Both the position numbers and the translations under genes were made by a program. A stretch of 64,000 bases of DNA from Candidatus Omnitrophota bacterium (GTDB taxonomy: Bacteria; Omnitrophota; Gorgyraeia; Gygaellales; Profunditerraquicolaceae): assembly GCA_026387335.1 (NCBI GenBank), contig JAPLLX010000002.1:77326-141325 (forward strand), read 5' to 3'. Numbering within the stretch: position 1 is the first letter of the stretch; each line of letters starts with the position of its first letter. Under the pieces are notes generated by a model that ran no database searches, was not told where the DNA came from, and saw only the letters and a program-made list of their open reading frames with translations. Positions 26,052 through 46,357 of the stretch are shown piece by piece.

Positions 26052-26450
26052 ATGAAATTAATCACCAGGAATACGGATTACGCATTAAGGGCGGTATGTT
26101 TTATGGCTAAACATAAGGGGAAGGTTGTTTCGGTCGCAGAATTGACCCGAAAATTACGGGTGCCCCGGCCGTTCTTAAGAAAGATACTCCAATCATTAAA
26201 CAGAAGCGGGATACTTAAGTCTCTTAGGGGACAGGGAGGCGGGTTCATCCTGGCGAAAGATGCGACGCAGATATTTCTAATGGATATAATGCGCATATTT
26301 CAGGGGAAATTGAGGCTAAACGATTGTCTGCTCAAAAAACTTATCTGTCCTAATAAAAGAAGCTGTCCTTTAAGAAAAAAGATCGCTAAAATTGAAAGTT
26401 ATGTGCTTAAAGAGTTAAGTGCTATTAATATAGCGTCATTATTGGAATAA
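26052..26450 (+). CDS. Rrf2-family transcriptional regulator
   Basis: 132 aa with MKLITRNTDYALRAVCFMA, a wHTH, and C-terminal cysteines (CLLKKLICPNKRSC) that could bind an Fe-S cluster. Confidence 0.85.
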   Translation: MKLITRNTDYALRAVCFMAKHKGKVVSVAELTRKLRVPRPFLRKILQSLNRSGILKSLRGQGGGFILAKDATQIFLMDIMRIFQGKLRLNDCLLKKLICPNKRSCPLRKKIAKIESYVLKELSAINIASLLE

Positions 26451-31312: not shown

Positions 31313-31753
31313 ATGAAAATCACCTATAAGGGCGATTACGCCTTAAAGACAATTTTGGATTTAGCCGCTCATTTCGGGAACGGACCGGTGGTCATCAACG
31401 ATTTATCCCGGCGCCTGGATATCCCCACAAAGTTCCTAGAGCAGATACTTTTGGATTTAAAGCGGGCGCACTTTGTGGAGAGTAAGCGCGGTAAGATCGG
31501 AGGCTATTCTTTGGCCAGGCATCCAGGGCAAATTACCCTGGGAGAGGTGACCCGTTTTATTGACGGCCCGATTGAGCCGATTGCCTGCGTAGATAAAAGA
31601 TATTCCGGCTGTCATGACGCGGGAGCCTGTGTTTTTAGAAGCATTTGGGGCCAGGTAAGCAGCTCAACCGCCAAGATCATAGATAATATAACCTTTGAAG
31701 ACCTTTTGAAAAGGTCAAAGAGGACAAATAAGTCTTTCAATTACCAAATTTAA
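31313..31753 (+). CDS. Rrf2-family regulator (CymR/IscR-like)
   Basis: 146 aa with Rrf2 N-terminus MKITYKGDYALKTILDLA and three spaced cysteines (CVDKRYSGCHDAGAC). Confidence 0.85.
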   Translation: MKITYKGDYALKTILDLAAHFGNGPVVINDLSRRLDIPTKFLEQILLDLKRAHFVESKRGKIGGYSLARHPGQITLGEVTRFIDGPIEPIACVDKRYSGCHDAGACVFRSIWGQVSSSTAKIIDNITFEDLLKRSKRTNKSFNYQI

Positions 31754-37499: not shown

Positions 37500-37528
37500 C
37501 CTATTGTAAACTATAATTAGATAATAAG

Positions 37529-37556
37529 TTGACAATAAGCCACGGCCATTTATAAT
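37529..37556 (+). promoter_or_regulatory. consensus sigma70 promoter (TTGACA-N16-TATAAT)
   Basis: The -10 element ends 7 nt before ATG 37564 and no SD lies between them, so the transcript may be leaderless. Confidence 0.5.
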
Positions 37557-37563
37557 ATGCCGT

Positions 37564-39357
37564 ATGCATAAGATAAAGTGGCACGGCTTATTTTTTGCAA
37601 TAATTCTAGCGGGTACTTTTTCTTTTGCCTTGGCGCAGGATGATACCTCGACAGACTTAGATAGAATAGTTGTTTCTAAGAGCAGAAACTTGTTTTCAGG
37701 CGGGTATTCTTTAAGTGCTGCCGACCTAGAAGCCCTTCCGGCAAGCTCAATTATTGAAGCAGTAGGTTCATTACCTTTAGATTTACAGAGCCGCTCACCG
37801 CACTCAGGGATCCAAGCAGATTTTTCTTTACGCGGGTCAAGTTTTCAGGATGTGCTTCTTCTTCTTAACGGCCGGCGGATTAACGATCCCCAGACAGCCC
37901 ATTTTAATTCCGATATTCCCTTTACCCGCGCGGATATCTCCAAGGCCCAGGTTTTGCCTTCAGCTTCTTCATCGCTTTTTGGCCCGGACGCGATAGGAGG
38001 GGCGGTTAATTTCATTATTAAAAGGCCGCAAGAGAAAAAATACGTTTTAGAATTATCCGGGGGCCAGCATAACACTTTTTCAGGGCTTTTTAGCGCCAGC
38101 GATAAGATTAAAGACTTGGGGTTAAGGCTATCCATAGAGAGAGCGCAGTCATCCGGGTTCCATGAGGACACAGATTATAAAAAATTTACCACAAGTATCG
38201 CTTCTTCTCTAGCCTTGCCGTTGGGCTCCTTTGATTTTAATATGGGGTATCAGCAAAAGGAATTCGGAGCGTTTGATTTTTATACCCCCGGAAAAAATAA
38301 TCCTTCCAAGGAGTGGACAAGGACGTATCTTTTAGATACCGGATTCAATTTAGATAAGGATGGTTTGGTGATTAAGCCGAATTTTATCTGGCGCAGGCAT
38401 TTTGATAAATTCCAGCTGGATAAAACAGGGGTGAAAAGTAATTTTGTCAGTAATCACCGTAACGACACATATACACCGAGTATTTATTTTCAAAAGGAAT
38501 TTTTAAGCCTGGGCAAACTCGGTTTTGGCCTGGAATATGGAGATGAACGTATTACCTCCACTACTTTAGGCAGGCACAATAGGGAGCACAAAAGCCTATT
38601 TATTGATGACGCGCTAGATTTAACTCCAGCGCTTTCTTCAGGCTTATCTTTTCGCCTGGATGATTTTGACAGTTTTAATACAGCTTATACCGGCTCCTTA
38701 ACCTTGCGCTACGAAATCCTTAGCCAAAACTTTTTGCATTTTGCGGTTTCCCGGAATATTCGCGTGCCTTCTTTTACCGAGCTTTATTATAGCGATGACG
38801 GTTATACTATAGGTAACTCTAATCTTTCAGCCGAGAAGTCCCTGAATTACGAAATCGGTTACGAAATCAAAAAAGAGAGATTTTCCTTTAGCCCGACACT
38901 ATTCTTCCGCAGGGAGGATGATTTTATTGACTGGGTAATGGCTGGTTCAAGATGGCAGGCTAAAAACATTTCCGGCGCGGATGTGCTTGGGATAGAAACT
39001 CGATTCGGATGGGAAATAAATAAAATTGCTAGCGTAAATACCAATTATACCTATATTAATAAATTCACGAATAATGAGTACCTTTTTAAATACGGGCCCA
39101 ACTATGCCCGGCACCTGTGGAATACCGAATTTGTCTTCCAGCTTCCTTTCGGCGCTCAAAGTATAGGTTTTACCTATAAAAAGAAACCCGGTCGAGACGG
39201 CTGGTTTCTGCTTAACGCCCGCGCAAACTTCAATTTAAATAAAAATACCTCTTTATTTATTACGGGGACAAACCTGCTTAATACCGGTTATCAGGAGATA
39301 GAGGGGATACCTCAGCCCGGAAGGTGGGTAGATTCCGGATTTAGGCTTGAATGGTAA
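37564..39357 (+). CDS. TonB-dependent outer-membrane receptor
   Basis: 597 aa with a signal peptide, plug-domain motifs (DRIVVS, LLLNGRRINDP, FGPDAIGGAVNFI) and a C-terminal beta-barrel ending in an aromatic residue (GFRLEW). Confidence 0.8.
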   Translation: MHKIKWHGLFFAIILAGTFSFALAQDDTSTDLDRIVVSKSRNLFSGGYSLSAADLEALPASSIIEAVGSLPLDLQSRSPHSGIQADFSLRGSSFQDVLLLLNGRRINDPQTAHFNSDIPFTRADISKAQVLPSASSSLFGPDAIGGAVNFIIKRPQEKKYVLELSGGQHNTFSGLFSASDKIKDLGLRLSIERAQSSGFHEDTDYKKFTTSIASSLALPLGSFDFNMGYQQKEFGAFDFYTPGKNNPSKEWTRTYLLDTGFNLDKDGLVIKPNFIWRRHFDKFQLDKTGVKSNFVSNHRNDTYTPSIYFQKEFLSLGKLGFGLEYGDERITSTTLGRHNREHKSLFIDDALDLTPALSSGLSFRLDDFDSFNTAYTGSLTLRYEILSQNFLHFAVSRNIRVPSFTELYYSDDGYTIGNSNLSAEKSLNYEIGYEIKKERFSFSPTLFFRREDDFIDWVMAGSRWQAKNISGADVLGIETRFGWEINKIASVNTNYTYINKFTNNEYLFKYGPNYARHLWNTEFVFQLPFGAQSIGFTYKKKPGRDGWFLLNARANFNLNKNTSLFITGTNLLNTGYQEIEGIPQPGRWVDSGFRLEW

Positions 39358-39372
39358 AAGATTATTGCTATA

Positions 39373-39672
39373 ATGTTATCTATGTTTATTCATGTTGTTT
39401 TATTCCAGGTTAAGCCTAAAGAAGTGGCCAAATACCGCAAGGATAGCCTGATGTGGGCCAGTTATACTAAGAAAGCTAAAGGATTTGTGGCGTATTTTAC
39501 TATGAAGCGTTACGGTCGCCTTAATCAATACGCTTCAGTGTATGAATGGGATAGAAAAGTTGATCACAACCGCTTTATGAAGAAATACCACGATTGGTTG
39601 GTAAGCAAATCCAAAGCCAAGGTAAAAGTGCTGGGTTATTATAACCTTAAAGGCATAGATAGGCTAAGGTAA
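39373..39672 (+). CDS. small ABM/Dabb-like ferredoxin-fold protein (candidate)
   Basis: 99 aa. Only the pattern of an antibiotic-biosynthesis-monooxygenase-like fold. Its position after a TonB receptor is reminiscent of IsdG-type proteins, but this is weak. Confidence 0.3.
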   Translation: MLSMFIHVVLFQVKPKEVAKYRKDSLMWASYTKKAKGFVAYFTMKRYGRLNQYASVYEWDRKVDHNRFMKKYHDWLVSKSKAKVKVLGYYNLKGIDRLR

Positions 39673-39688
39673 AAATACCTAAAAAAAC

Positions 39689-39716
39689 TTGAAATTCGCC
39701 TATTTTATGGTATACT
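39689..39716 (+). promoter_or_regulatory. promoter of the giant ORF (TTGAAA-N16-TATACT with TGn extended -10)
   Basis: TTGAAA at 39689-39694 and TGGTATACT at 39708-39716. Confidence 0.55.
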
Positions 39717-39781
39717 TTCTTAAGTTTTAGGTAGTTAGGATTAGCGTTCCCGCTGGAGGGCGGAAACGCGGAGAAGTCTAT

Positions 39782-39829
39782 AAACCAGAATGCCACGAAC
39801 AAGGGTCGGCTTTCTGGTTTTTTATTTTC
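39782..39829 (+). terminator. intrinsic terminator inside the 5' leader of the giant ORF (attenuator or riboswitch expression platform)
   Basis: AAACCAGAAtGCC-N13-GGCtTTCTGGTTT stem followed by TTTTTTATTTT. It ends 36 nt before ATG 39866. Confidence 0.65.
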
Positions 39830-39865
39830 CGGTATTATTAAAGAGATTAAAAAAGGAGTTAGGGA

Positions 39866-42800
39866 ATGAAAGTCAAATTAAGAAAAATCCTATCTTTAGC
39901 TTTAACCATTAGTTTACTTTTTCAGCAAATAGGTTTTGCCCAGATAGCTACCGAACTTAACCTGGTCAATCACTTCGCCAGGATGGCTAGCAGTCTCACA
40001 GTAGAGAAATTTCGGCCCCTGCACCTGCGTTATTTCTCTTACGACAACTTAAATGACAATTTCAAGGTATTGGTGGATAAAGGTGACTTCGAGAAGGGAC
40101 TGTCCCCGAAGGGGGCTGTCCCTGAAGAGAAACTTAAAGAAGAAACCAAAACCCTCCTTAGCTACTTCCTTGTAGGAGTTACTCTTCCAGATAGTATGTT
40201 CTGGGTTAACCTGCGCCCTGATTCCGAAGACCAGATAATAGACCAGTATCTGGAGAAGACAGATATAGGTAAGATAATGCTGGAAGCAGATCTCCAGCTA
40301 AAGAAAGACACCGCGCTAATGACTTCTCCGGCTACCCCTGAAGGTAGGGAATACTGGGATAGGCTCTATAAGAAGGCAGCCGAGCTTTATGGCTATGATA
40401 ATGTTAGCATACCTACCTTAACCCGGCCCTGGATAGTCCCCGGAGAAATAATTGTCCGGGAATCTCAAGACTCAGCCTATGTTTATAAAGCTAATCTTAA
40501 GGTAATGCTGGAGCAGGATTACTTAAAAGATTCTAGTAACTATAACTTTAAAGACAGCCGCTCCAAAGCCCTGAATGAATACTCATCCGAACTAATAAGG
40601 GAATTAATTATCCCTAAGCTCACTAAAGAAGTAAACTCCAGCAAAAGATACGCTCCTTTACGCCAGGTATATTACTCTTTAATCCTGGCCCGCTGGTTTA
40701 AACTGCGCTTTAGCGGCAAAACCGGCACCTATGCTTCGCTCATTAACACTAGGAATTTAACTAACTTAATATCTAAAGACTCCTGGTCCAAGACCGATTA
40801 TTTTAAACAATACCAAAAATCCTTCTCTGAAGGCGAATACAATATCCAAGAACCAGTGCGTACCCCTACAGGCCAGGTAATCAGGAGTTACTTTAGCGGC
40901 GGGATAGATGTAGCTAGTAGCGCTATTAATACTCAGAATGGCGTTAGTAATCTTAAAGCGGCGTTGCCCCTTTCTTTGTTTTCTCGAACCGGAGTCATAA
41001 TAGGAGGAAATGCCGCAAGGCCTTTTAGCGTAAATCTGCAGCCCGTTGTTGCCGCTTCAGTCGGCGCCGCCTCGCCGGTTAAAACCTCTAGCCCGATATT
41101 TACTCTTGATGATAGAAATGGGGTAGTCTTTTCTGTTTATCCCAGAACAGAAATAAGAGAGGATCAACTAAGAGAGGCGGCGGAGGTTTTGAAAAACCGG
41201 ATTTTTAACTATCCAAAAAATGGCAAGATTATTGATATTCAGCTAGTCCCTGGCTCTAAGCGGCAGATAGCTTATCCTACGCGCTGGAAAATAGTTATAG
41301 AGCATAAGCCTGATTTAGAAGAAACTCTGGTTACATTAGTAAATGATCAGGGCAAAGTTATTATTAATATAGGCTATTCTATCGATAGTAAAGCGCTCGA
41401 TTTACCAGAAAAACTTCTTAACGAACACCTGCAGATGGCATTGATTAGCGCCGCATCCAGAATAAGGTTTAATTCACTGGCCGCCGCCTCGCCGGTTAGT
41501 TCATTAGAAAATCAAGCATATCTTCTTGCTTTAACCTTGGGCATAAAAGATTCAGAAAGGAAGTATGTCGCGGTGGTATTTATGATGCCTTTGATAAAAG
41601 CCTTTATGGATAATAGTAATCCTCCTCCGACTTCAAGCCAGGCCAAAGAATTCTATCAGAGAATAATAAATAATACAGACAAGACAGTTTCAGTTGAAGT
41701 TTTAGCCCGGTCGTTTGCTTTCCTTTCAAATCCGAACGCTAGCTTGTCGGAAAAAGAAAAATTCAACAGCTCGCCGGTGACTTCAAATTTAGCTAAGGCA
41801 GTTGAGGAAGCGCAAAGCCAGTTGCCGGCAGATGTAAATGAACAGATTTTAAAGTTTATTGTTACCGGCGATGAAAATGGAAGAATACTTTATCCTATTT
41901 GGCCGCAAGATTCTGTTATGGTCGGACATGTCAGAGATGACCGGGCTGGATATTTTGCCAGAGGCCTGCAGAATAGAGGCTTTAAAAATTTATTAGGATA
42001 TATTAAATTTACCAATGATTTCCAAGGTAAAGCTGTTTTGTCCGAAGAAACTATCGCTAGTGTTCCAAATACTTTTTTTGAGAGAATATCCAACAAGGGG
42101 TATCAAGTGTTGGTGATTTCTGAAGATGAGAAGAAAAGCCATACGGGTAAAAACGCTGCCGGTAGGAAAAAGGACGGGCTTTTCCCCGGGCAAAAACAGA
42201 TTGTAATACCTATGCAGAAATCTGAAATGGCCTATGTAGATACTCCCCAGATGAAAATGAAAGAATGCGCTGACGAGGTATTAAATGGACTGGATGACGA
42301 TGCTACAGATTTTATTTTAGTTAATCTGCTAAGTTCAGATATGATGAAACACACCGGTAACTTCCAAGCGGCAAAAAAAAGTAATGAAATAACCGACCAG
42401 CAGATCGGAAGAATAAAAGAAAAGGTTGATAGAATAAAAAGCCATATTCTGGGTGATATGATGAAAGAAGTCAATAAATACTTATCTAGAGAAGAGGCCA
42501 GTCAGCTTTATGTTTTACTATTGAATAATTATGCTGAATTTTTAGCAAGGCTGAAGAATAAAAACCAGGAGCTCTATAAACGGATAAAAGATTTAGAAGC
42601 CAAAATTCCCATCTTTGTTATTACTGCTGACCATGGCGCTTCTGAGGCAGGTCTCACTGATAATCCGAAGGAATCCGACACTTTCCATACAGCCAATCCA
42701 GTGCCGTATATTATTTATGATCCCCTAAGAACTCAAAAATTAGCTTTAAAGTCCGGACAGACCATCAGGAATAACGGGGCTACATTATTACACCTATTAG

Positions 42801-45800
42801 GCGAAGAGATCCCCCAAGGGTCTGATCCCAGCTTGCTGCCTGATGATTATCAAGGAAGTAAGCGTAGGATCACGATGGCTGTTTTGGATGGCTGGGGTAT
42901 AAACCCTGATCAGAATTATCCCTGGGATGCTATCCGGCTGGCCAATACACCTAATTATGACTGGATGGTTGAGAATGCGTCTTTCACTCAGGTCCAAGCG
43001 CACGGTGAAGTGATCGGATTAAGAGGCCCATTATCTTTGGAAGAAGGTAGACACCATTTAAGAGGCCTGCAAGCAGGCCAGACTGACGTTGGCCACCTGC
43101 ATTTGTTCTCACTGAGAGAGATTAAACAACCTTTATGGTATGTAGACAGGCTTATCAAAGGCAGTATACGCGATGGCGTTTTTGATGAAAGCAAACCCGA
43201 AGTCCAGGTATTGGTAAAAGAATTACAAAGGGTTAAGGATAATAATTTGAGATTTCATTATATAACCATCGCTTCTGAGGGTGGAGTGCATTCTTCGCTC
43301 TATCATATGTATGCCTTGATGAGATTAGCTAAGAAAATCGGCTTAAGGCAGGATCAATTTATTATCCATTTTGCCGCTGACGGTAGGGATGTGCCTACGC
43401 GCACCGCGCATCTATACATTCAGGATGTTGAAAAACGCATTGAAGAAATTGGAATAGGCGTAATTGCAACGGTATTTGGCAGGGATATGTTCGTACGTAA
43501 GGATGGCGCAGAAAATATCACTAATCGCATCATTGATGTAATGGAGGGTATTAATCTGGATGCGCAGGATGTCACGCAGGTAAAATCTGTCGCCAGCTCG
43601 GCGGTCACAGCAGTAGAATCTTTGAGAAATGATATTCTAACTAGGCTAAAAGAACGGATAAAAGATGATTCTGTTGTTAACCTGGTAAGGTCAAACTACT
43701 TATTTTATACGGCGAATACTCCTTCTAAATTAGCAAAGGCACTTGTTCAGATAGAAGAGAATCTGGATGGATTGATTATGTCTGCCACCGAAGAAAGATC
43801 GAGAGACCTGCAGACGCTCCAAGAATCAATAGAATCAGAACTGGCTAAACTTGTCTCCGTCGACTTGCCGGTGGAGACTATCAGTGAATTTGCAAAGATA
43901 GTTGAAAAACTGGCTGGTTATGGAGATGTAAGTTTTGATATATCGGGAACGGGAACTTTGAGAATACGCTATGCTGGTAATTTGTCTATGGTAGATAAGG
44001 TAGAAGCCGACAAGCTTCTGGTTAAGGCTAGAAAATTAATAGTAGAAGTTTCTTCTATAATAGGAAAAAAGATAAGCCAGTCATATGTGATGAAATTCCC
44101 GCAGGGGACTTTAGCTGCTAAGATAAGGGAAGATTTACTGCTTGAAAAAGCAAGGATATCAGAAAGTTTCGCCAGCTCGGAGGTTACTTATATAGACATA
44201 AATGAAGTAAGGCCGCCGGATAAGAGTTTTACTTTTCAACCCACAAATGGAGTGAGAATTTTTATTAATAATCGTGTCAATTGGTATACTCTGCAATTGG
44301 CTAGGTATGAGCCGGGAAAGAAGAATTATTTGATATTTAAGATTGGCAATCAACCTGTTCATTACGCTTACCTGAGCAGTAATCTTACAATTGGCCAACA
44401 GGATGTTGTTAGGACTATAATGAGAAAAATAGAGAATGGAACTCAGCTGTGGACAGAAATAGACTTAATCCAAGCGTTGGAAAAAGCATTATCTATGTCA
44501 CAATATAAGCCTAAAACTCAAGAATTACCGTCACCAATTATAATAGAACCTATTGTAGATAATAAAATTAAAGTGGAGTCGGGTGATTCAGAGCGCGCCA
44601 GCTCGCCGGTGCAGAAGGAAGAAAGATCGAACTATCTATTCTCTGGGTTACAGGAGGCAACCTTAGATGCAATTGGGGATATCCAGGGATTGGCAAGTTG
44701 GGCGCCTTTAATAGAAGAAGGCCCCAGCGGCGTAGAGCTAGGTATGGATATTATAATGAAGGAATACGGTTTAGATTCAGATAAGCCTATTCTTACGCAA
44801 CGATTAGCCGAACCAGGTAATTTTAAAGAGCTTTTGGAAAAAATCGATAAATTATATGAGTTTTTGGAAAAAAAATTAGAGAGCTTTTCTAAATTACTCG
44901 CTGATGTTAAAGAACAACAAAAGAAAATAATGACCCAGCATATAAGTAGTGTTAGCGACCAGGGTAAGGGTATAGAAAAAAGTTCCGTTTATTGGGGGAG
45001 TGAGTTTGTTTTAGAAGTTGCAATTAATAACATTGAAATAGCAATGCTTAAGTTAAGGCAAGCTGTTGAGAAAGTCAAAGGAGATATAGCTATTGTACCC
45101 AACTCATATATCGGGACTAAATTAAAGGAAGGCGCCAGCTCGGCGGTAACCAGAGAGAAAAAAGAGTCAGTTAACCTTTTAGGCGGAAGCACGCAAAAAA
45201 GAGTGCTTAGGGTTTATGAAGAGAAGGGCAGAGATTTAATAGCTACAGCCCTAGCTACAGGCCTTACTTTGGATATTGTATCTGAGTATGTTAAGGACGC
45301 CAAGCGTAATCCGGCCAGCTCGGCGGTGACGGAAAAAATTAAGGAAACGTTTCGCCAAGGAGGACTTTCCTTGAGTGAGTATACTATGGATTATATCGCG
45401 AAAAGGTTAAGCTCCATATTAAAGGATGGCGATGATATTGATAGAGATACTGCTGCTAAAATATTAATTAGCGTATATGATAATAATAAGCTTGCGGGTG
45501 GAACTCGAGCCCTCGGTCAAGTGTTTGCAACGCTTAATGATGCCAGGGAATTGCGGGAAATGGTAAAATACATCCGCGATCAGAAGGATAAATCTGTTGC
45601 CAGCTCGGCGGTGCATCATAAAATAATCAACCTCTACGATTTTGATTCTATCAAGGCGAAGAAAATAGATCCAAGTATTTTAAAAAATAGATTCATAGAG
45701 AAAATAGAAGAATTAATAGCAGATGTAAGGGAAGGTAAGAGAAGAGAATTTGCCGGTGAGTTGATACGATTAGCGAAAGCTGATGAGAACCTTTATACGA

Positions 45801-46357
45801 TTTGGTTTACCGATACAACATGGGTAGATATTAGACCTCAAGGGACAGAGATAGATATTAATTTTAGGTGTCGAGCTGGAATAGAGCAAAGCGTTGTGTG
45901 GGATGTTAGGCGTTTGATTAAGCTTTCCCAGTCAGAATTGTTAGTAGGAACCGTCGGCTCGGCGGTGCAGACTCCTGAGGAGACCGCAAGTTCAGCGTTG
46001 ACTCCCGGCGGTATTGATTTCCGCGCTCTACCGATGAGCATCCAGCCGATGGGAAGTTTTGCGGGCCTGAATTTTAAGCTGCCGCAGTTGACTCAAGCGC
46101 AGCTTAAGCAAATCAATATTGAATCAGAGATGCAACAGGTTAAGAATCTGGTAGAATCAGGGATTGTTCCTTCCGGAGACAGGATTAAAGAGCTTATCGC
46201 CGCTTGCAGCCAGAAGGGGAAGATTAGTTATTATGTAGATAATCTATTACTCTGCCTGGTAGATATATGTAAACTTGAAGAGCAGAATGCCTTTGAAACT
46301 TCCCCGGAGCTAAGAGAGGCGCTGGCGATTGTTGATTCGCTTGGCGGGCAGGTATAA
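39866..46357 (+). CDS. giant secreted mosaic protein (2163 aa) with embedded circularly permuted iPGM-like phosphatase domain; function unknown
   Basis: Uninterrupted 6.5-kb ORF with RBS AAAAGGAG and signal peptide MKVKLRKILSLALTISLLFQQIGFAQ. Has recurring ASS(A/P)V junctions, iPGM motifs (see findings), and a C-terminal PGGIDFRALP region. Confidence 0.9.
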   Translation: MKVKLRKILSLALTISLLFQQIGFAQIATELNLVNHFARMASSLTVEKFRPLHLRYFSYDNLNDNFKVLVDKGDFEKGLSPKGAVPEEKLKEETKTLLSYFLVGVTLPDSMFWVNLRPDSEDQIIDQYLEKTDIGKIMLEADLQLKKDTALMTSPATPEGREYWDRLYKKAAELYGYDNVSIPTLTRPWIVPGEIIVRESQDSAYVYKANLKVMLEQDYLKDSSNYNFKDSRSKALNEYSSELIRELIIPKLTKEVNSSKRYAPLRQVYYSLILARWFKLRFSGKTGTYASLINTRNLTNLISKDSWSKTDYFKQYQKSFSEGEYNIQEPVRTPTGQVIRSYFSGGIDVASSAINTQNGVSNLKAALPLSLFSRTGVIIGGNAARPFSVNLQPVVAASVGAASPVKTSSPIFTLDDRNGVVFSVYPRTEIREDQLREAAEVLKNRIFNYPKNGKIIDIQLVPGSKRQIAYPTRWKIVIEHKPDLEETLVTLVNDQGKVIINIGYSIDSKALDLPEKLLNEHLQMALISAASRIRFNSLAAASPVSSLENQAYLLALTLGIKDSERKYVAVVFMMPLIKAFMDNSNPPPTSSQAKEFYQRIINNTDKTVSVEVLARSFAFLSNPNASLSEKEKFNSSPVTSNLAKAVEEAQSQLPADVNEQILKFIVTGDENGRILYPIWPQDSVMVGHVRDDRAGYFARGLQNRGFKNLLGYIKFTNDFQGKAVLSEETIASVPNTFFERISNKGYQVLVISEDEKKSHTGKNAAGRKKDGLFPGQKQIVIPMQKSEMAYVDTPQMKMKECADEVLNGLDDDATDFILVNLLSSDMMKHTGNFQAAKKSNEITDQQIGRIKEKVDRIKSHILGDMMKEVNKYLSREEASQLYVLLLNNYAEFLARLKNKNQELYKRIKDLEAKIPIFVITADHGASEAGLTDNPKESDTFHTANPVPYIIYDPLRTQKLALKSGQTIRNNGATLLHLLGEEIPQGSDPSLLPDDYQGSKRRITMAVLDGWGINPDQNYPWDAIRLANTPNYDWMVENASFTQVQAHGEVIGLRGPLSLEEGRHHLRGLQAGQTDVGHLHLFSLREIKQPLWYVDRLIKGSIRDGVFDESKPEVQVLVKELQRVKDNNLRFHYITIASEGGVHSSLYHMYALMRLAKKIGLRQDQFIIHFAADGRDVPTRTAHLYIQDVEKRIEEIGIGVIATVFGRDMFVRKDGAENITNRIIDVMEGINLDAQDVTQVKSVASSAVTAVESLRNDILTRLKERIKDDSVVNLVRSNYLFYTANTPSKLAKALVQIEENLDGLIMSATEERSRDLQTLQESIESELAKLVSVDLPVETISEFAKIVEKLAGYGDVSFDISGTGTLRIRYAGNLSMVDKVEADKLLVKARKLIVEVSSIIGKKISQSYVMKFPQGTLAAKIREDLLLEKARISESFASSEVTYIDINEVRPPDKSFTFQPTNGVRIFINNRVNWYTLQLARYEPGKKNYLIFKIGNQPVHYAYLSSNLTIGQQDVVRTIMRKIENGTQLWTEIDLIQALEKALSMSQYKPKTQELPSPIIIEPIVDNKIKVESGDSERASSPVQKEERSNYLFSGLQEATLDAIGDIQGLASWAPLIEEGPSGVELGMDIIMKEYGLDSDKPILTQRLAEPGNFKELLEKIDKLYEFLEKKLESFSKLLADVKEQQKKIMTQHISSVSDQGKGIEKSSVYWGSEFVLEVAINNIEIAMLKLRQAVEKVKGDIAIVPNSYIGTKLKEGASSAVTREKKESVNLLGGSTQKRVLRVYEEKGRDLIATALATGLTLDIVSEYVKDAKRNPASSAVTEKIKETFRQGGLSLSEYTMDYIAKRLSSILKDGDDIDRDTAAKILISVYDNNKLAGGTRALGQVFATLNDARELREMVKYIRDQKDKSVASSAVHHKIINLYDFDSIKAKKIDPSILKNRFIEKIEELIADVREGKRREFAGELIRLAKADENLYTIWFTDTTWVDIRPQGTEIDINFRCRAGIEQSVVWDVRRLIKLSQSELLVGTVGSAVQTPEETASSALTPGGIDFRALPMSIQPMGSFAGLNFKLPQLTQAQLKQINIESEMQQVKNLVESGIVPSGDRIKELIAACSQKGKISYYVDNLLLCLVDICKLEEQNAFETSPELREALAIVDSLGGQV
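43592..45613 (+). repeat. dispersed in-frame 14-mer GCCAGCTCGGCGGT (4 exact copies, 2 one-mismatch copies)
   Basis: Exact copies start at 43592, 45134, 45314 and 45599. One-mismatch copies start at 44171 (GCCAGCTCGGAGGT) and 44597 (GCCAGCTCGCCGGT). Degenerate relatives start at 41066, 41480, 41768, 45956 and 45986. Confidence 0.9.

What the first reader, a model, noticed from the sequence alone, without database searches (positions are those of the whole stretch)
39717..39865. Structured leader of about 145 nt with a strong intrinsic terminator in front of the giant ORF (orphan riboswitch or attenuator candidate)
A good promoter (TTGAAA-N16-TGGTATACT) is followed by an imperfect hairpin at 39744-39769 (GCGTT-c-CCGC-tggagg-GCGG-a-AACGC). 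After that comes a 12-bp terminator stem with a U tract at 39782-39829, only 36 nt before the start codon.

By default, transcription should therefore stop before the 6.5-kb ORF unless something prevents terminator formation.

I compared the leader from memory with c-di-GMP-I/II, guanidine-I/II, ZTP, preQ1, fluoride, glycine and Mn2+ consensus features and found no convincing match. It may belong to an undescribed class or be a protein- or sRNA-dependent attenuator.
Basis: seen in the sequence. Interest (0 to 1): 0.6.

Follow-up and report, generated by a model that had tools for sequence, protein, structure and literature searches.

The report
Conserved terminator leader before giant gene
The stretch in front of the 6.5-kb gene is a real, conserved and so far undescribed RNA leader (a hairpin followed by a transcription terminator) that precedes one subfamily of giant secreted proteins in Omnitrophota bacteria and most likely decides whether the giant gene is transcribed, although the signal it senses is unknown.

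Summary
A near-consensus promoter (39689-39716) is followed by an imperfect hairpin with a GGAGG loop (39744-39769) and a strong intrinsic terminator (39783-39828), 42 nt before the ATG of a 2163-aa ORF.

It is not chance. The same leader, called type A here, lies directly upstream of homologous giant genes in 21 of 160 other Omnitrophota loci. A related type B lies upstream in 31 more. Both show compensatory base changes, and each has its own promoter. Neither type occurs anywhere else in 887 kb searched.

Four boxes are shared: the GGAGG loop, UGCCACG, GGGUC and the U tract. In type B the 5' flank AUCCGG pairs with the 5' half of the terminator, which is a classic switch. The window's type A has no such alternative pairing.

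No Rfam 15 family matches, and two papers on Omnitrophota giant genes do not mention the leader.

Best reading: a new cis-acting transcription-attenuation leader. The effector is unknown. I give a trans-acting RNA-binding factor about 0.4 and a metabolite (riboswitch) about 0.3.

Novelty: new member of a known kind. Interest 0.55.

The parts
39689..39716 (+). Sigma-70-type promoter: -35 TTGAAA (39689-39694), 16-nt spacer, extended -10 TGgTATACT (39708-39716). An A-rich tract lies upstream. The predicted transcription start is near 39722-39724.
   Evidence: 10 of 12 matches, TG present. An equivalent promoter with at least 9 of 12 matches is present in 46 of 47 homologous leaders, with its -10 ending 10-43 nt before the RNA element.
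39743..39770 (+). Hairpin H1: AGCGUU-C-CCGC / GCGG-A-AACGC(G), with the apical loop UGGAGG. The invariant GGAGG is at 39755-39759.
   Evidence: -15.8 kcal/mol. In alignment A3, 7 of the 11 pairs show changes on both sides and 91% of cells are paired. GGAGG is invariant in 18 of 18 type A leaders.
39771..39782 (+). Linker between H1 and the terminator (GAGAAGUCUAUA). It is poorly conserved. In the window it holds no antiterminator partner.
39783..39828 (+). Intrinsic terminator. Lower stem: AACCAGAA / UUCUGGUU. Upper stem: GCCAC / GU-c-GGC. Loop: GAACAAGG. U tract: 39818-39828 (U6 A U4).
   Evidence: -18.1 kcal/mol, z = -5.3. The lower stem covaries across homologues (AG/CU, GG/CC and GC/GC variants; pairs 65-106 and 66-105).
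39791..39797 (+). UGCCACG box. It is conserved in both leader types. Here it forms the 5' side of the upper terminator stem.
   Evidence: GCCAC is invariant in alignment A2 of 22 type B leaders and absent only from the divergent L149 in the 27-leader A4. It is nearly invariant in type A. Forbidding it from pairing lowers the stability of the terminator hairpin from -18.1 to -8.7 kcal/mol.
39803..39807 (+). GGGUC box, at the 3' end of the terminator loop and the start of the 3' strand. It is conserved in both leader types.
39829..39865 (+). Spacer after the terminator, with the conserved AAAGAGAUUAAAAAAGGAG sequence. The Shine-Dalgarno GGAG is at 39855-39858.
   Evidence: The same sequence occurs in L001, L002, L003, L005, L008 and L016, and in some type B loci.
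39866..46357 (+). Regulated gene: a 2163-aa ORF. It has a Sec-like signal peptide, a conserved N-terminal domain of about 390 aa, a cofactor-independent phosphoglycerate mutase core, and a conserved C-terminal domain of about 110 aa. It belongs to a large Omnitrophota paralogue family.

Best explanation
The region is the 5' leader of the giant gene's mRNA. It acts as a transcription attenuator and belongs to a conserved RNA motif that has not been described before.

Proposed sequence of events:
1. RNA polymerase starts at the strong promoter, near 39723.
2. It transcribes hairpin H1 with its GGAGG loop, then the terminator hairpin.
3. Unless something interferes, it releases a roughly 100-nt transcript at the U tract (39818-39828), so the 6.5-kb ORF stays silent.
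4. Read-through needs an effector that recognises the conserved unpaired or weakly paired boxes: the GGAGG loop, UGCCACG and GGGUC.
5. In the window's type A, binding to UGCCACG/GGGUC would melt the upper terminator stem and weaken the hairpin.
6. In the related type B the same boxes are wired into a three-strand switch. The 5' flank AAUCCGG pairs with CCGGAUU, which is otherwise the 5' half of the terminator.

I think the effector is most likely a trans-acting RNA-binding factor (a protein), because the window's variant has no alternative RNA fold for a small ligand to stabilise.

Shown: the anatomy, the conservation, the covariation, the promoter, the exclusive position in front of this gene family, and the absence from Rfam.

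Inferred: that termination occurs, that it is regulated, the direction of regulation, and the nature of the effector.

I put about 0.75-0.8 on the core claim of a cis-acting terminator-based regulatory leader. I put 0.4 on the protein or macromolecule effector.
For: Anatomy in the window.

Occurrence:
- In 160 Omnitrophota loci holding homologues of the ORF's N-terminal domain, models R2 (type A) and R1 (type B) give significant hits in 21 and 31 loci.
- Every hit is on the gene's strand, and there is one per locus.
- For the 49 hits with a recorded start codon, the hit ends a median of 43-46 nt before the start.
- There is no other hit in the 64-kb window or in the flanks (887 kb in all).

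Covariation:
- Type A: 90.9% of cells are paired against 40-47% for slid controls. 13 pairs have changes on both sides, and 0 of 500 shuffles reach this (MAFFT-only version).
- Type B: 91.5% against 17-59%, and all six P2 pairs covary.

Relation of the two types: R2 also scores type B leaders at 23-40 bits.

Promoter: present in 46 of 47 leaders.

The element travels with the downstream gene:
- Upstream neighbours differ between loci and are divergent in L010, L104 and L106.
- L161 has a separate terminator-like palindrome, then a promoter, then the leader.

Type B switch:
- P1 and the terminator share CCGGAU.
- The switch has one concerted three-strand change, in L045.
- The two states are nearly iso-energetic, with a median difference of +0.8 kcal/mol.

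Effect of box occupancy: forbidding the UGCCACG box from pairing halves the terminator's stability.
Against: There are no transcript data, so neither termination nor its relief has been observed.

The window's type A shows no conserved antiterminator. It could be a constitutive terminator.

No candidate RNA-binding regulator (NusG paralogue, ANTAR, PyrR or CsrA) is encoded among about 60 ORFs of the window.

P1 of type B is almost invariant in sequence, so its covariation rests on few events.

The sequences are related MAG paralogues and orthologues, so the shuffle statistics overstate significance.
Confidence: 0.4

Rival explanations
1. It is a metabolite- or second-messenger-binding riboswitch of a new class. 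The hairpin with the GGAGG loop, the UGCCACG box and the adjoining internal loop would form the aptamer. Ligand binding would then decide whether the terminator forms.
For: Type B has the standard riboswitch layout.
- A conserved helix, P1, has a 3' strand that is also the 5' half of the terminator.
- P2 shows covariation.
- Conserved nucleotides sit in loops.
- The internal loop varies in length, with inserted hairpins in L097.
- The alternative folds are nearly iso-energetic.

No known class matches.
Against: The window's type A has no alternative pairing for a ligand to stabilise.

The structure is small and simple. The extra P4 helix I proposed has no covariation, and I found no pseudoknot partner for GGAGG.

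The enzyme cargo of the regulated genes varies (phosphoglycerate mutase, guanylate kinase, response regulator, HEAT repeats). No metabolite is therefore suggested by gene function.
Confidence: 0.3
2. The element is constitutive, not a switch. The terminator would simply end the upstream TonB-receptor/orf99 operon, or insulate and dampen a strong promoter. H1 would be a 5' stabilising hairpin. The giant gene would be expressed by leak-through.
For: In the window there is no other terminator between the stop codon of the upstream ORF (39672) and the promoter. Type A has no antiterminator.
Against: The loop and box sequences (GGAGG, UGCCACG, GGGUC) are conserved far beyond what a generic terminator or stabiliser needs.

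The element follows the downstream gene whatever lies upstream, including divergently oriented neighbours and a locus that has its own upstream terminator.

It always has its own promoter.

Type B carries a competing P1 helix.
Confidence: 0.12
3. H1 is mainly a DNA operator. The family's other promoters (type C) carry a perfect palindrome, GAAAGCGCTTTC, centred near -62. A near-identical sequence forms the 5' arm of H1 in many type A leaders. The same transcription factor could bind there, at about +20 to +30, and block elongation or initiation.
For. The box matches 10-12 of 12 positions in L003, L013, L022, L082 and L086-L088. In L028 and L029 it lies just 5' of P1. The basal pairs of H1 (AGCG/CGCU) never vary.
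Against: The window's own H1 matches the box at only 6 of 12 positions.

The upper pairs of H1 change on both sides and use G-U wobbles (UG:5 at two pairs). That pattern fits an RNA stem and does not fit two protein-binding half-sites.

Type B hairpins share the GGAGG loop but not the box.

This reading does not exclude the RNA mechanism.
Confidence: 0.07
4. It is an independent small RNA gene of about 100 nt, consisting of a promoter, two hairpins and a terminator, with a trans function. For example, it could be a decoy for a protein that binds GGA loops.
For: The unit is complete: a strong promoter and a strong terminator. It has a GGA-containing apical loop and a second G-rich loop.
Against: It is found only directly in front of one gene family and on the same strand. 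In many loci it lies 6-50 nt before the start codon, which leaves no room for a separate promoter for the gene. There are several copies per genome, always tied to paralogues.
Confidence: 0.06
5. Attenuation is mediated by the ribosome. The GGAGG loop would act as a Shine-Dalgarno sequence for a start-like NUG at the head of the UGCCACG box. In type B this reads UUG CCA CGG UAA. A bound or translating ribosome would free the 5' strand to form the antiterminator.
For: In type B, GGAGG lies 9-10 nt before UUG, GUG or CUG in 22 of 27 leaders. Several leaders read UUG-CCA-CGG-UAA.
Against: The stop codon and the reading frame are not conserved. Five leaders lack NUG. The spacer between GGAGG and NUG is the paired 3' strand of P2. 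In type A the AUG lies 33-50 nt from GGAGG and has no Shine-Dalgarno sequence of its own. The NUG positions are explained by pairing with UAG in the extended P2.
Confidence: 0.05

Closest known systems
Terminator-type riboswitches (for example the purine and c-di-GMP classes)
   Same: Both have a structured element close to the promoter, covariation in that element, an intrinsic terminator straight after it, and the start codon soon after that. In the type B relatives the 3' strand of the closing helix is also the 5' half of the terminator.
   Different: No Rfam 15 family matches, even at E up to 10. No ligand is known. The window's own variant has no mutually exclusive fold. The structure is only a hairpin with an internal loop.
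PyrR-controlled pyr attenuators (protein-bound purine-rich hairpin loop, antiterminator and terminator). I describe this system from my own knowledge.
   Same: Both are leaders with a hairpin that displays a conserved purine-rich loop, followed by a terminator. The terminator's formation depends on competing helices that share strands, which matches the logic of type B.
   Different: There is no hit to the Rfam PyrR model. The loop is GGAGG, not the PyrR binding sequence. The genes have nothing to do with pyrimidine synthesis. No pyrR-like gene lies in the window.
Leaders served by processive antiterminators (lambda N with nut boxB, LoaP with its leader hairpin). I describe these from my own knowledge.
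   Same: Both have a small conserved hairpin upstream of an intrinsic terminator, at the start of an unusually long transcription unit. This would suit type A, which has no RNA switch of its own.
   Different: There is no NusG-paralogue (NGN/KOW) gene among about 60 ORFs of the window. I saw no boxA-like element. The P1/terminator competition in type B points to local rather than processive control.
CsrA/RsmE binding sites (GGA in hairpin loops). I describe these from my own knowledge.
   Same: There is an A-N-GGA motif in an apical loop (AUGGAGG in type B), and a Shine-Dalgarno AAGGAG downstream.
   Different: The second conserved G-rich box is GGGUC, not GGA. The two sites are about 100 nt apart. 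CsrA is not known to need a terminator.
Archaeovorin-type giant proteins of Omnitrophota (bioRxiv 10.1101/2023.11.21.568195). This comparison concerns the regulated gene, not the RNA.
   Same: Both are Omnitrophota proteins with a signal peptide, and both are very long with embedded glycolytic or sugar-phosphate enzyme domains.
   Different: The window's ORF has 2163 aa, far below the giant range of at least 30,000 aa. Its membership of that group was not tested. The paper does not mention leaders, promoters or terminators.

Membership tests
Intrinsic (Rho-independent) terminator | A stable G+C-containing stem-loop directly followed by a run of U | tested here: met
   The stem has 13 pairs and a free energy of -18.1 kcal/mol (z = -5.3). 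It is followed by U6-A-U4 at 39818-39828. The stem and U tract are kept in all 19 type A and 27 type B leaders.
Intrinsic (Rho-independent) terminator | Transcripts actually end at the U tract | not testable with these tools
   No transcript data are available for this MAG.
5' leader (transcribed from its own promoter, upstream of the gene it controls) | A promoter upstream of the element, and no separate promoter between the element and the start codon | tested here: met
   The promoter matches 10 of 12 positions with an extended -10, and 46 of 47 homologous leaders have one. The median gap to the start codon is 43-46 nt and falls to 6-18 nt in several loci. The scan finds no promoter-like site in 39829-39865.
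Riboswitch (generic) | A conserved secondary structure supported by covariation | tested here: met
Riboswitch (generic) | An expression platform that competes with the sensor fold (mutually exclusive helices) | tested here: inconclusive
   The feature is met in the type B relatives, where P1 and the terminator share CCGGAU and the two states differ by a median of 0.8 kcal/mol. It is not met in the window's type A.
Riboswitch (generic) | Direct and selective binding of a small molecule | not testable with these tools
   This needs in-line probing, ITC or transcription assays.
Any described RNA family (Rfam 15: riboswitches, T-box, PyrR, leaders, sRNAs) | A score against the family covariance model | tested here: not met
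   There were no matches at gathering scores in the whole window. Nothing relevant appeared at E up to 10 in 39300-40300. There was also nothing on the leaders of 20 further loci of types A, B and C at E up to 1-5, or at gathering scores in 20 type C loci.
ANTAR-regulated leaders (described from my own knowledge) | Two tandem hairpins with hexaloops carrying A at position 1 and G at position 4, the second overlapping the terminator | tested here: not met
   The H1 loop is UGGAGG, with U at position 1 and A at position 4. Type B loops are 7-13 nt long. No ANTAR-domain gene lies in the window.
LoaP/NusG-paralogue-dependent leaders (described from my own knowledge) | A specialised NusG paralogue encoded next to the target operon | tested here: not met
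   About 60 ORFs of the 64-kb window were scanned against Pfam, and none has an NGN or KOW domain. The rest of the genome was not available.
Leader-peptide attenuators | A conserved short ORF with a Shine-Dalgarno sequence, a start and a stop, whose translation overlaps the switching strands | tested here: not met
   The frame and stop codon after NUG-CCA-CGG are not conserved. Type A has no Shine-Dalgarno sequence near its AUG.

The most novel reading that the evidence does not exclude
The motif is the sensor of a new riboswitch class, perhaps for a nucleotide second messenger or a central-carbon metabolite. It would gate transcription of one subfamily of the Omnitrophota giant surface proteins that carry enzymes. 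Type B would be the canonical aptamer-plus-terminator form. The window's type A would be a rearranged form in which the UGCCACG box has moved into the terminator.
Probability: 0.3. Interest if true: 0.75.

Novelty: new member of a known kind. Interest (0 to 1): 0.55.

Why it matters
Omnitrophota are uncultured, largely host-dependent or predatory nanobacteria. Nothing is known about how their very long surface proteins with embedded glycolytic enzymes are controlled.

This work yields a conserved leader with a clear on/off element, together with a parallel family of promoters that carry a palindromic operator. Together they give the first concrete regulatory handles on that gene family.
- The RNA can be synthesised and probed in vitro without culturing the organism.
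- Metatranscriptomes can be checked for terminated against read-through transcripts.
- The motif can serve as a marker to find co-regulated genes.

If the effector is a small molecule, this would be a new riboswitch class from a candidate phylum. If it is a protein, it would be a new attenuation system.

Tried and rejected
1. Known RNA families. Five Rfam scans gave nothing on any leader. I recalled a 'PGK' motif from Weinberg et al. 2017. The main text of that paper does not mention it, its supplements are not held, and no Rfam model hit these leaders.

2. Terminator of the upstream gene. This is rejected as the main role. Upstream neighbours differ between loci and are divergent in L010, L104 and L106. 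L161 has its own upstream terminator-like palindrome.

3. The 99-aa upstream ORF as regulator. It is conserved only in the five syntenic loci and has no family hit.

4. An antiterminator in type A. Only the CGC/CGG subgroup has a weak local hairpin, CGGUUU/AAACCG. The window and its CCAGAA subgroup have none.

5. A P4 helix (CGGU/GCCG) that would make type B a three-way junction. It shows no covariation, and its departures are only unpaired cells.

6. Pseudoknots for the GGAGG loop. By eye I found no conserved complementary segment. CUGG/CCAG and GGAGG/CUUYC pairings fail in several members.

7. A mini-ORF UUG-CCA-CGG-UAA. The stop codon and the frame are not conserved.

8. CsrA.

9. Resemblance to 16S rRNA helix 18. 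The words UGCCA..CGGUAA and GGAGG also occur there. This is from memory, the order differs, and I did not test or pursue it.

10. Identity of the N- and C-terminal protein domains. There were no Pfam, NCBIfam or PDB sequence matches. I did not run structure prediction, because it would not decide the question about the RNA.

Full report
**What is in the window**

The intergenic region 39673-39865 lies between a 99-aa ORF (stop codon at 39672) and a 2163-aa ORF (39866-46357). It contains, in order:
- TTGAAA-N16-TGgTATACT at 39689-39716, which matches 10 of 12 consensus positions and has an extended -10.
- An imperfect hairpin, H1, at 39744-39769 with the loop UGGAGG (-15.8 kcal/mol, z = -3.1).
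- A 13-pair hairpin at 39783-39819 with one U.U mismatch and one bulged C (-18.1 kcal/mol, z = -5.3), followed by U6-A-U4.
- A 37-nt A-rich spacer with a GGAG Shine-Dalgarno sequence.
- The ATG.

**Organism and gene**

The ORF is identical to a hypothetical protein of a Candidatus Omnitrophica MAG. It carries a cofactor-independent phosphoglycerate mutase core. Flanking that core are a Sec-like signal peptide, a conserved N-terminal domain of about 390 aa and a conserved C-terminal domain of about 110 aa.

Those two flanking domains are shared at 55-80% identity by hundreds of Omnitrophota proteins. The middle parts of those proteins hold other enzymes, including PGK, enolase, TPI, GAPDH, phosphomannomutase, PPDK and guanylate kinase. 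The flanking domains match nothing in Pfam, NCBIfam or PDB sequences.

Glycolytic enzyme domains inside very long Omnitrophota proteins have been reported under the name 'Archaeovorins' (bioRxiv 10.1101/2023.11.21.568195). Neither that paper nor a 2026 survey mentions leaders, promoters, terminators or riboswitches.

The rest of the window encodes housekeeping genes on the same strand. No NusG paralogue, ANTAR, PyrR-like or CsrA-like gene is among them.

**Comparative evidence**

I fetched 80 genome loci and 80 metagenome loci that encode the N-terminal domain and read the 300 nt upstream of each start codon. Three kinds of upstream region appear.

- **Type A** (the window and about 20 loci). 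A promoter is followed by a hairpin on an invariant AGCG/CGCU base with a GGAGG loop, then a linker. The terminator then reads AAACC(AG/GG/GC)A-(A/U)UGCCACG-loop-GGGUC-GGC-U(CU/CC/GC)GGUUU, followed by U6 or longer.
- **Type B** (about 31 loci). AAUCCGG-UAG comes first, then a variable hairpin P2 with the loop (U)AUGGAGGUA. Next come UUGCCACGG(U/A)A, a variable loop, and AAGCCGGAUU-GAC-loop-GGGUC-A(N)UCCGGC-U6.
- **Type C** (most other loci). There is no such RNA. Instead there is a perfect palindrome GAAAGCGCTTTC about 26 nt upstream of a CCTTGAA -35, a TATAGCATACTT -10, and a conserved 5'UTR, GGCTGATAAACC.

**Specificity**

I built covariance models from type B (R1) and type A (R2) and searched the window plus all 160 loci, 887 kb on both strands.
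- The window has one hit, at 39743-39823 (80.1 bits, E about 1e-15).
- Across the loci R2 gives 21 hits and R1 gives 31.
- Every hit is on the gene's strand, with one hit per locus.
- For the 49 hits with a recorded start codon, the hit ends a median of 43-46 nt before the family gene's start.
- The only other low-E hits are reverse-strand echoes of the palindromic H1.
- R2 also scores type B leaders at 23-40 bits, so the two types are related.
- A further iPGM-carrying homologue, L161 (3347 aa), also has a type A leader (68.5 bits).

**Structure**

Type A, Infernal alignment:
- 90.9% of cells form standard pairs, against 40-47% when partners are slid.
- 13 pairs change on both sides, and 0 of 500 shuffles reach this.
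- The MAFFT-only alignment gives 88% and 11 pairs.
- Both H1 and the lower terminator stem covary. The lower stem appears as CCAGAA/UUCUGG, CCGGAA/UUCCGG and CCGCA/UGCGG.

Type B:
- P1 + P2 + P3 are 91.5% paired, against 17-59% for slid controls.
- All six P2 pairs covary.
- P2 extends through GGUAG/UUGCC, and one pair there shows five pair types.
- P1 (AAUCCGG/CCGGAUU) is almost invariant, as expected. CCGGAU must pair with the 5' flank or with the terminator's 3' strand, and those two strands have nearly the same sequence.
- One lineage, L045, changed all three strands together: GUCCG, CGGAC, GUCCG.
- In transcripts cut before the terminator's 3' strand, the folds with and without the inner P1 pairs differ by a median of 0.8 kcal/mol.
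- In full-length RNAs the terminator is part of the minimum-energy fold in almost all members.
- A possible fourth helix has no covariation.

**It is a leader, not the tail of the upstream gene**
- 46 of 47 leaders have a promoter with at least 9 of 12 matches, whose -10 ends 10-43 nt before the element.
- Upstream genes differ between loci. Synteny with the window (BirA, TonB receptor, orf99) is kept only in five close loci.
- In L010, L104 and L106 the upstream neighbour is on the other strand.
- L161 has its own upstream terminator-like palindrome before the promoter.
- In many loci the gap to the start codon is too short for another promoter.

In the window the terminator may additionally end the upstream operon, since nothing else lies between 39672 and the promoter.

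**Mechanism**

Type B is wired like a terminator-type switch. If AAUCCGG pairs with CCGGAUU, the terminator cannot form.

The window's type A has the same conserved boxes but no competing helix. Truncated-transcript folds show no conserved partner for the terminator's 5' strand. Only the CGC/CGG subgroup has a weak local hairpin, CGGUUU/AAACCG.

In type A the UGCCACG and GGGUC boxes form the upper terminator stem. Keeping UGCCACG unpaired lowers the hairpin's stability from -18.1 to -8.7 kcal/mol and leaves a 21-nt loop.

I therefore infer the following. The default outcome is termination at 39818-39828. An effector that reads the GGAGG loop and the UGCCACG/GGGUC boxes allows read-through.

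The nature of the effector cannot be settled here. My estimates are:
- about 0.4 for a trans-acting RNA-binding factor, favoured by the lack of an alternative fold in type A and by the G-rich loops
- about 0.3 for a small molecule, favoured by the type B architecture
- about 0.12 for no regulation at all
- small shares for a DNA-operator role of H1, an independent sRNA, and a ribosome-mediated mechanism

The enzyme cargo differs among genes that have the leader. The signal is therefore probably common to the protein family rather than tied to phosphoglycerate mutase.

**Known families**

Rfam 15 has no matching model at gathering or permissive thresholds, in the window or in 40 loci of all three types. 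The closest known systems by logic are terminator-type riboswitches, PyrR-type attenuators and leaders served by antiterminator proteins. For each of them a defining feature was either not met or could not be tested.

The motif is thus a new member of a known kind, the terminator-based regulatory leader.

**Verdict**

The finding is real and conserved, and as far as Rfam 15 and the two papers I searched show, it is undescribed. Interest is 0.55. It would rise to about 0.75 if a ligand were found.

Noticed in passing
window 39866-46357; homologues P0002-P0120: The giant ORF belongs to a very large Omnitrophota-only paralogue family. A Sec-like signal peptide, a conserved N-terminal domain of about 390 aa and a conserved C-terminal domain of about 110 aa (GGIDFRALP...) bracket a variable middle. 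That middle carries whole glycolytic or sugar-phosphate enzymes: iPGM here, and PGK, enolase, TPI, GAPDH, PMM, PPDK, transaldolase or guanylate kinase elsewhere. The two bracketing domains match nothing in Pfam, NCBIfam or PDB sequences.
   Followed up: partly
L019, L020, L023, L025, L030, L031, L099, L101, L105 and many others, about 60-130 nt upstream of the family gene start: Most other paralogues lack the RNA leader. Instead they share a perfect 12-nt palindrome, GAAAGCGCTTTC, centred near -62. With it come a CCTTGAA -35, a TATAGCATACTT -10 and a conserved 5'UTR, GGCTGATAAACC. This looks like a dedicated transcription-factor operator for the family. L136 combines this promoter with a type B leader.
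   Followed up: partly
L003, L013, L022, L082, L086-L088 (5' arm of hairpin H1); L028/L029 just 5' of P1; window 39740-39751 (only 6 of 12 matches): The same GAAAGCG(C/T)TTTC box is embedded in the transcribed hairpin of many type A leaders. The hairpin may therefore double as a DNA operator, or it may have evolved from one.
   Followed up: partly
L161:1190-1225, L007, L013, L042, L043, L047, L079, L080 (intergenic): Palindromes of the form GGGACA...TGTCCC recur in Omnitrophota intergenic regions. They are often followed by a T run, and they sometimes lie between the leader's terminator and the start codon. They look like REP-like elements or generic terminators.
   Followed up: no
window 39373-39672: This 99-aa ORF has only a faint DUF4937 match. 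It is conserved at 83-90% identity directly downstream of a TonB-dependent receptor gene in the five syntenic loci (L002, L005, L081, L084, L095). Its function is unknown.
   Followed up: partly
window 37500-37563: A promoter-like TTGACA...TATAAT lies upstream of the TonB-receptor gene. It is flanked by the inverted repeat AAGCCACGGC...GCCGT and, further downstream, GTGGCACGGCTT. The word GCCACGG occurs here too, probably by coincidence.
   Followed up: no
L097:1334-1459: This type B leader has two extra hairpins (CCGCCGAAGGCGG and UUCGCCUACGGCGAA) inserted in the internal loop between the UGCCAC box and CCGGAU. That region therefore tolerates large insertions.
   Followed up: no
L149:1366-1447; L137, L091, L136 (loops): Some variants lack a conserved box. 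L149 has no GCCAC. L137, L091 and L136 have GAAAG, AAAGG or GGAAU in place of GGAGG. These natural mutants would be useful for testing which boxes matter.
   Followed up: no
L045:1-966; L062:1222-1382: The 3' end of a 23S rRNA gene and a 5S rRNA gene lie about 1.8 kb upstream of a type B leader in L045. There is a weak sub-threshold group I intron hit inside that 23S gene. A 6S RNA gene is present in L062.
   Followed up: no
window 26052-26450 and 31313-31753: Two Rrf2-family regulators lie in the window. One is next to oxidative-stress genes (desulfoferrodoxin, flavodiiron-like protein, thioredoxin reductase-like). The other is next to sulfur and cysteine/homocysteine genes. Almost all genes of the 64-kb window are on the + strand.
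   Followed up: no
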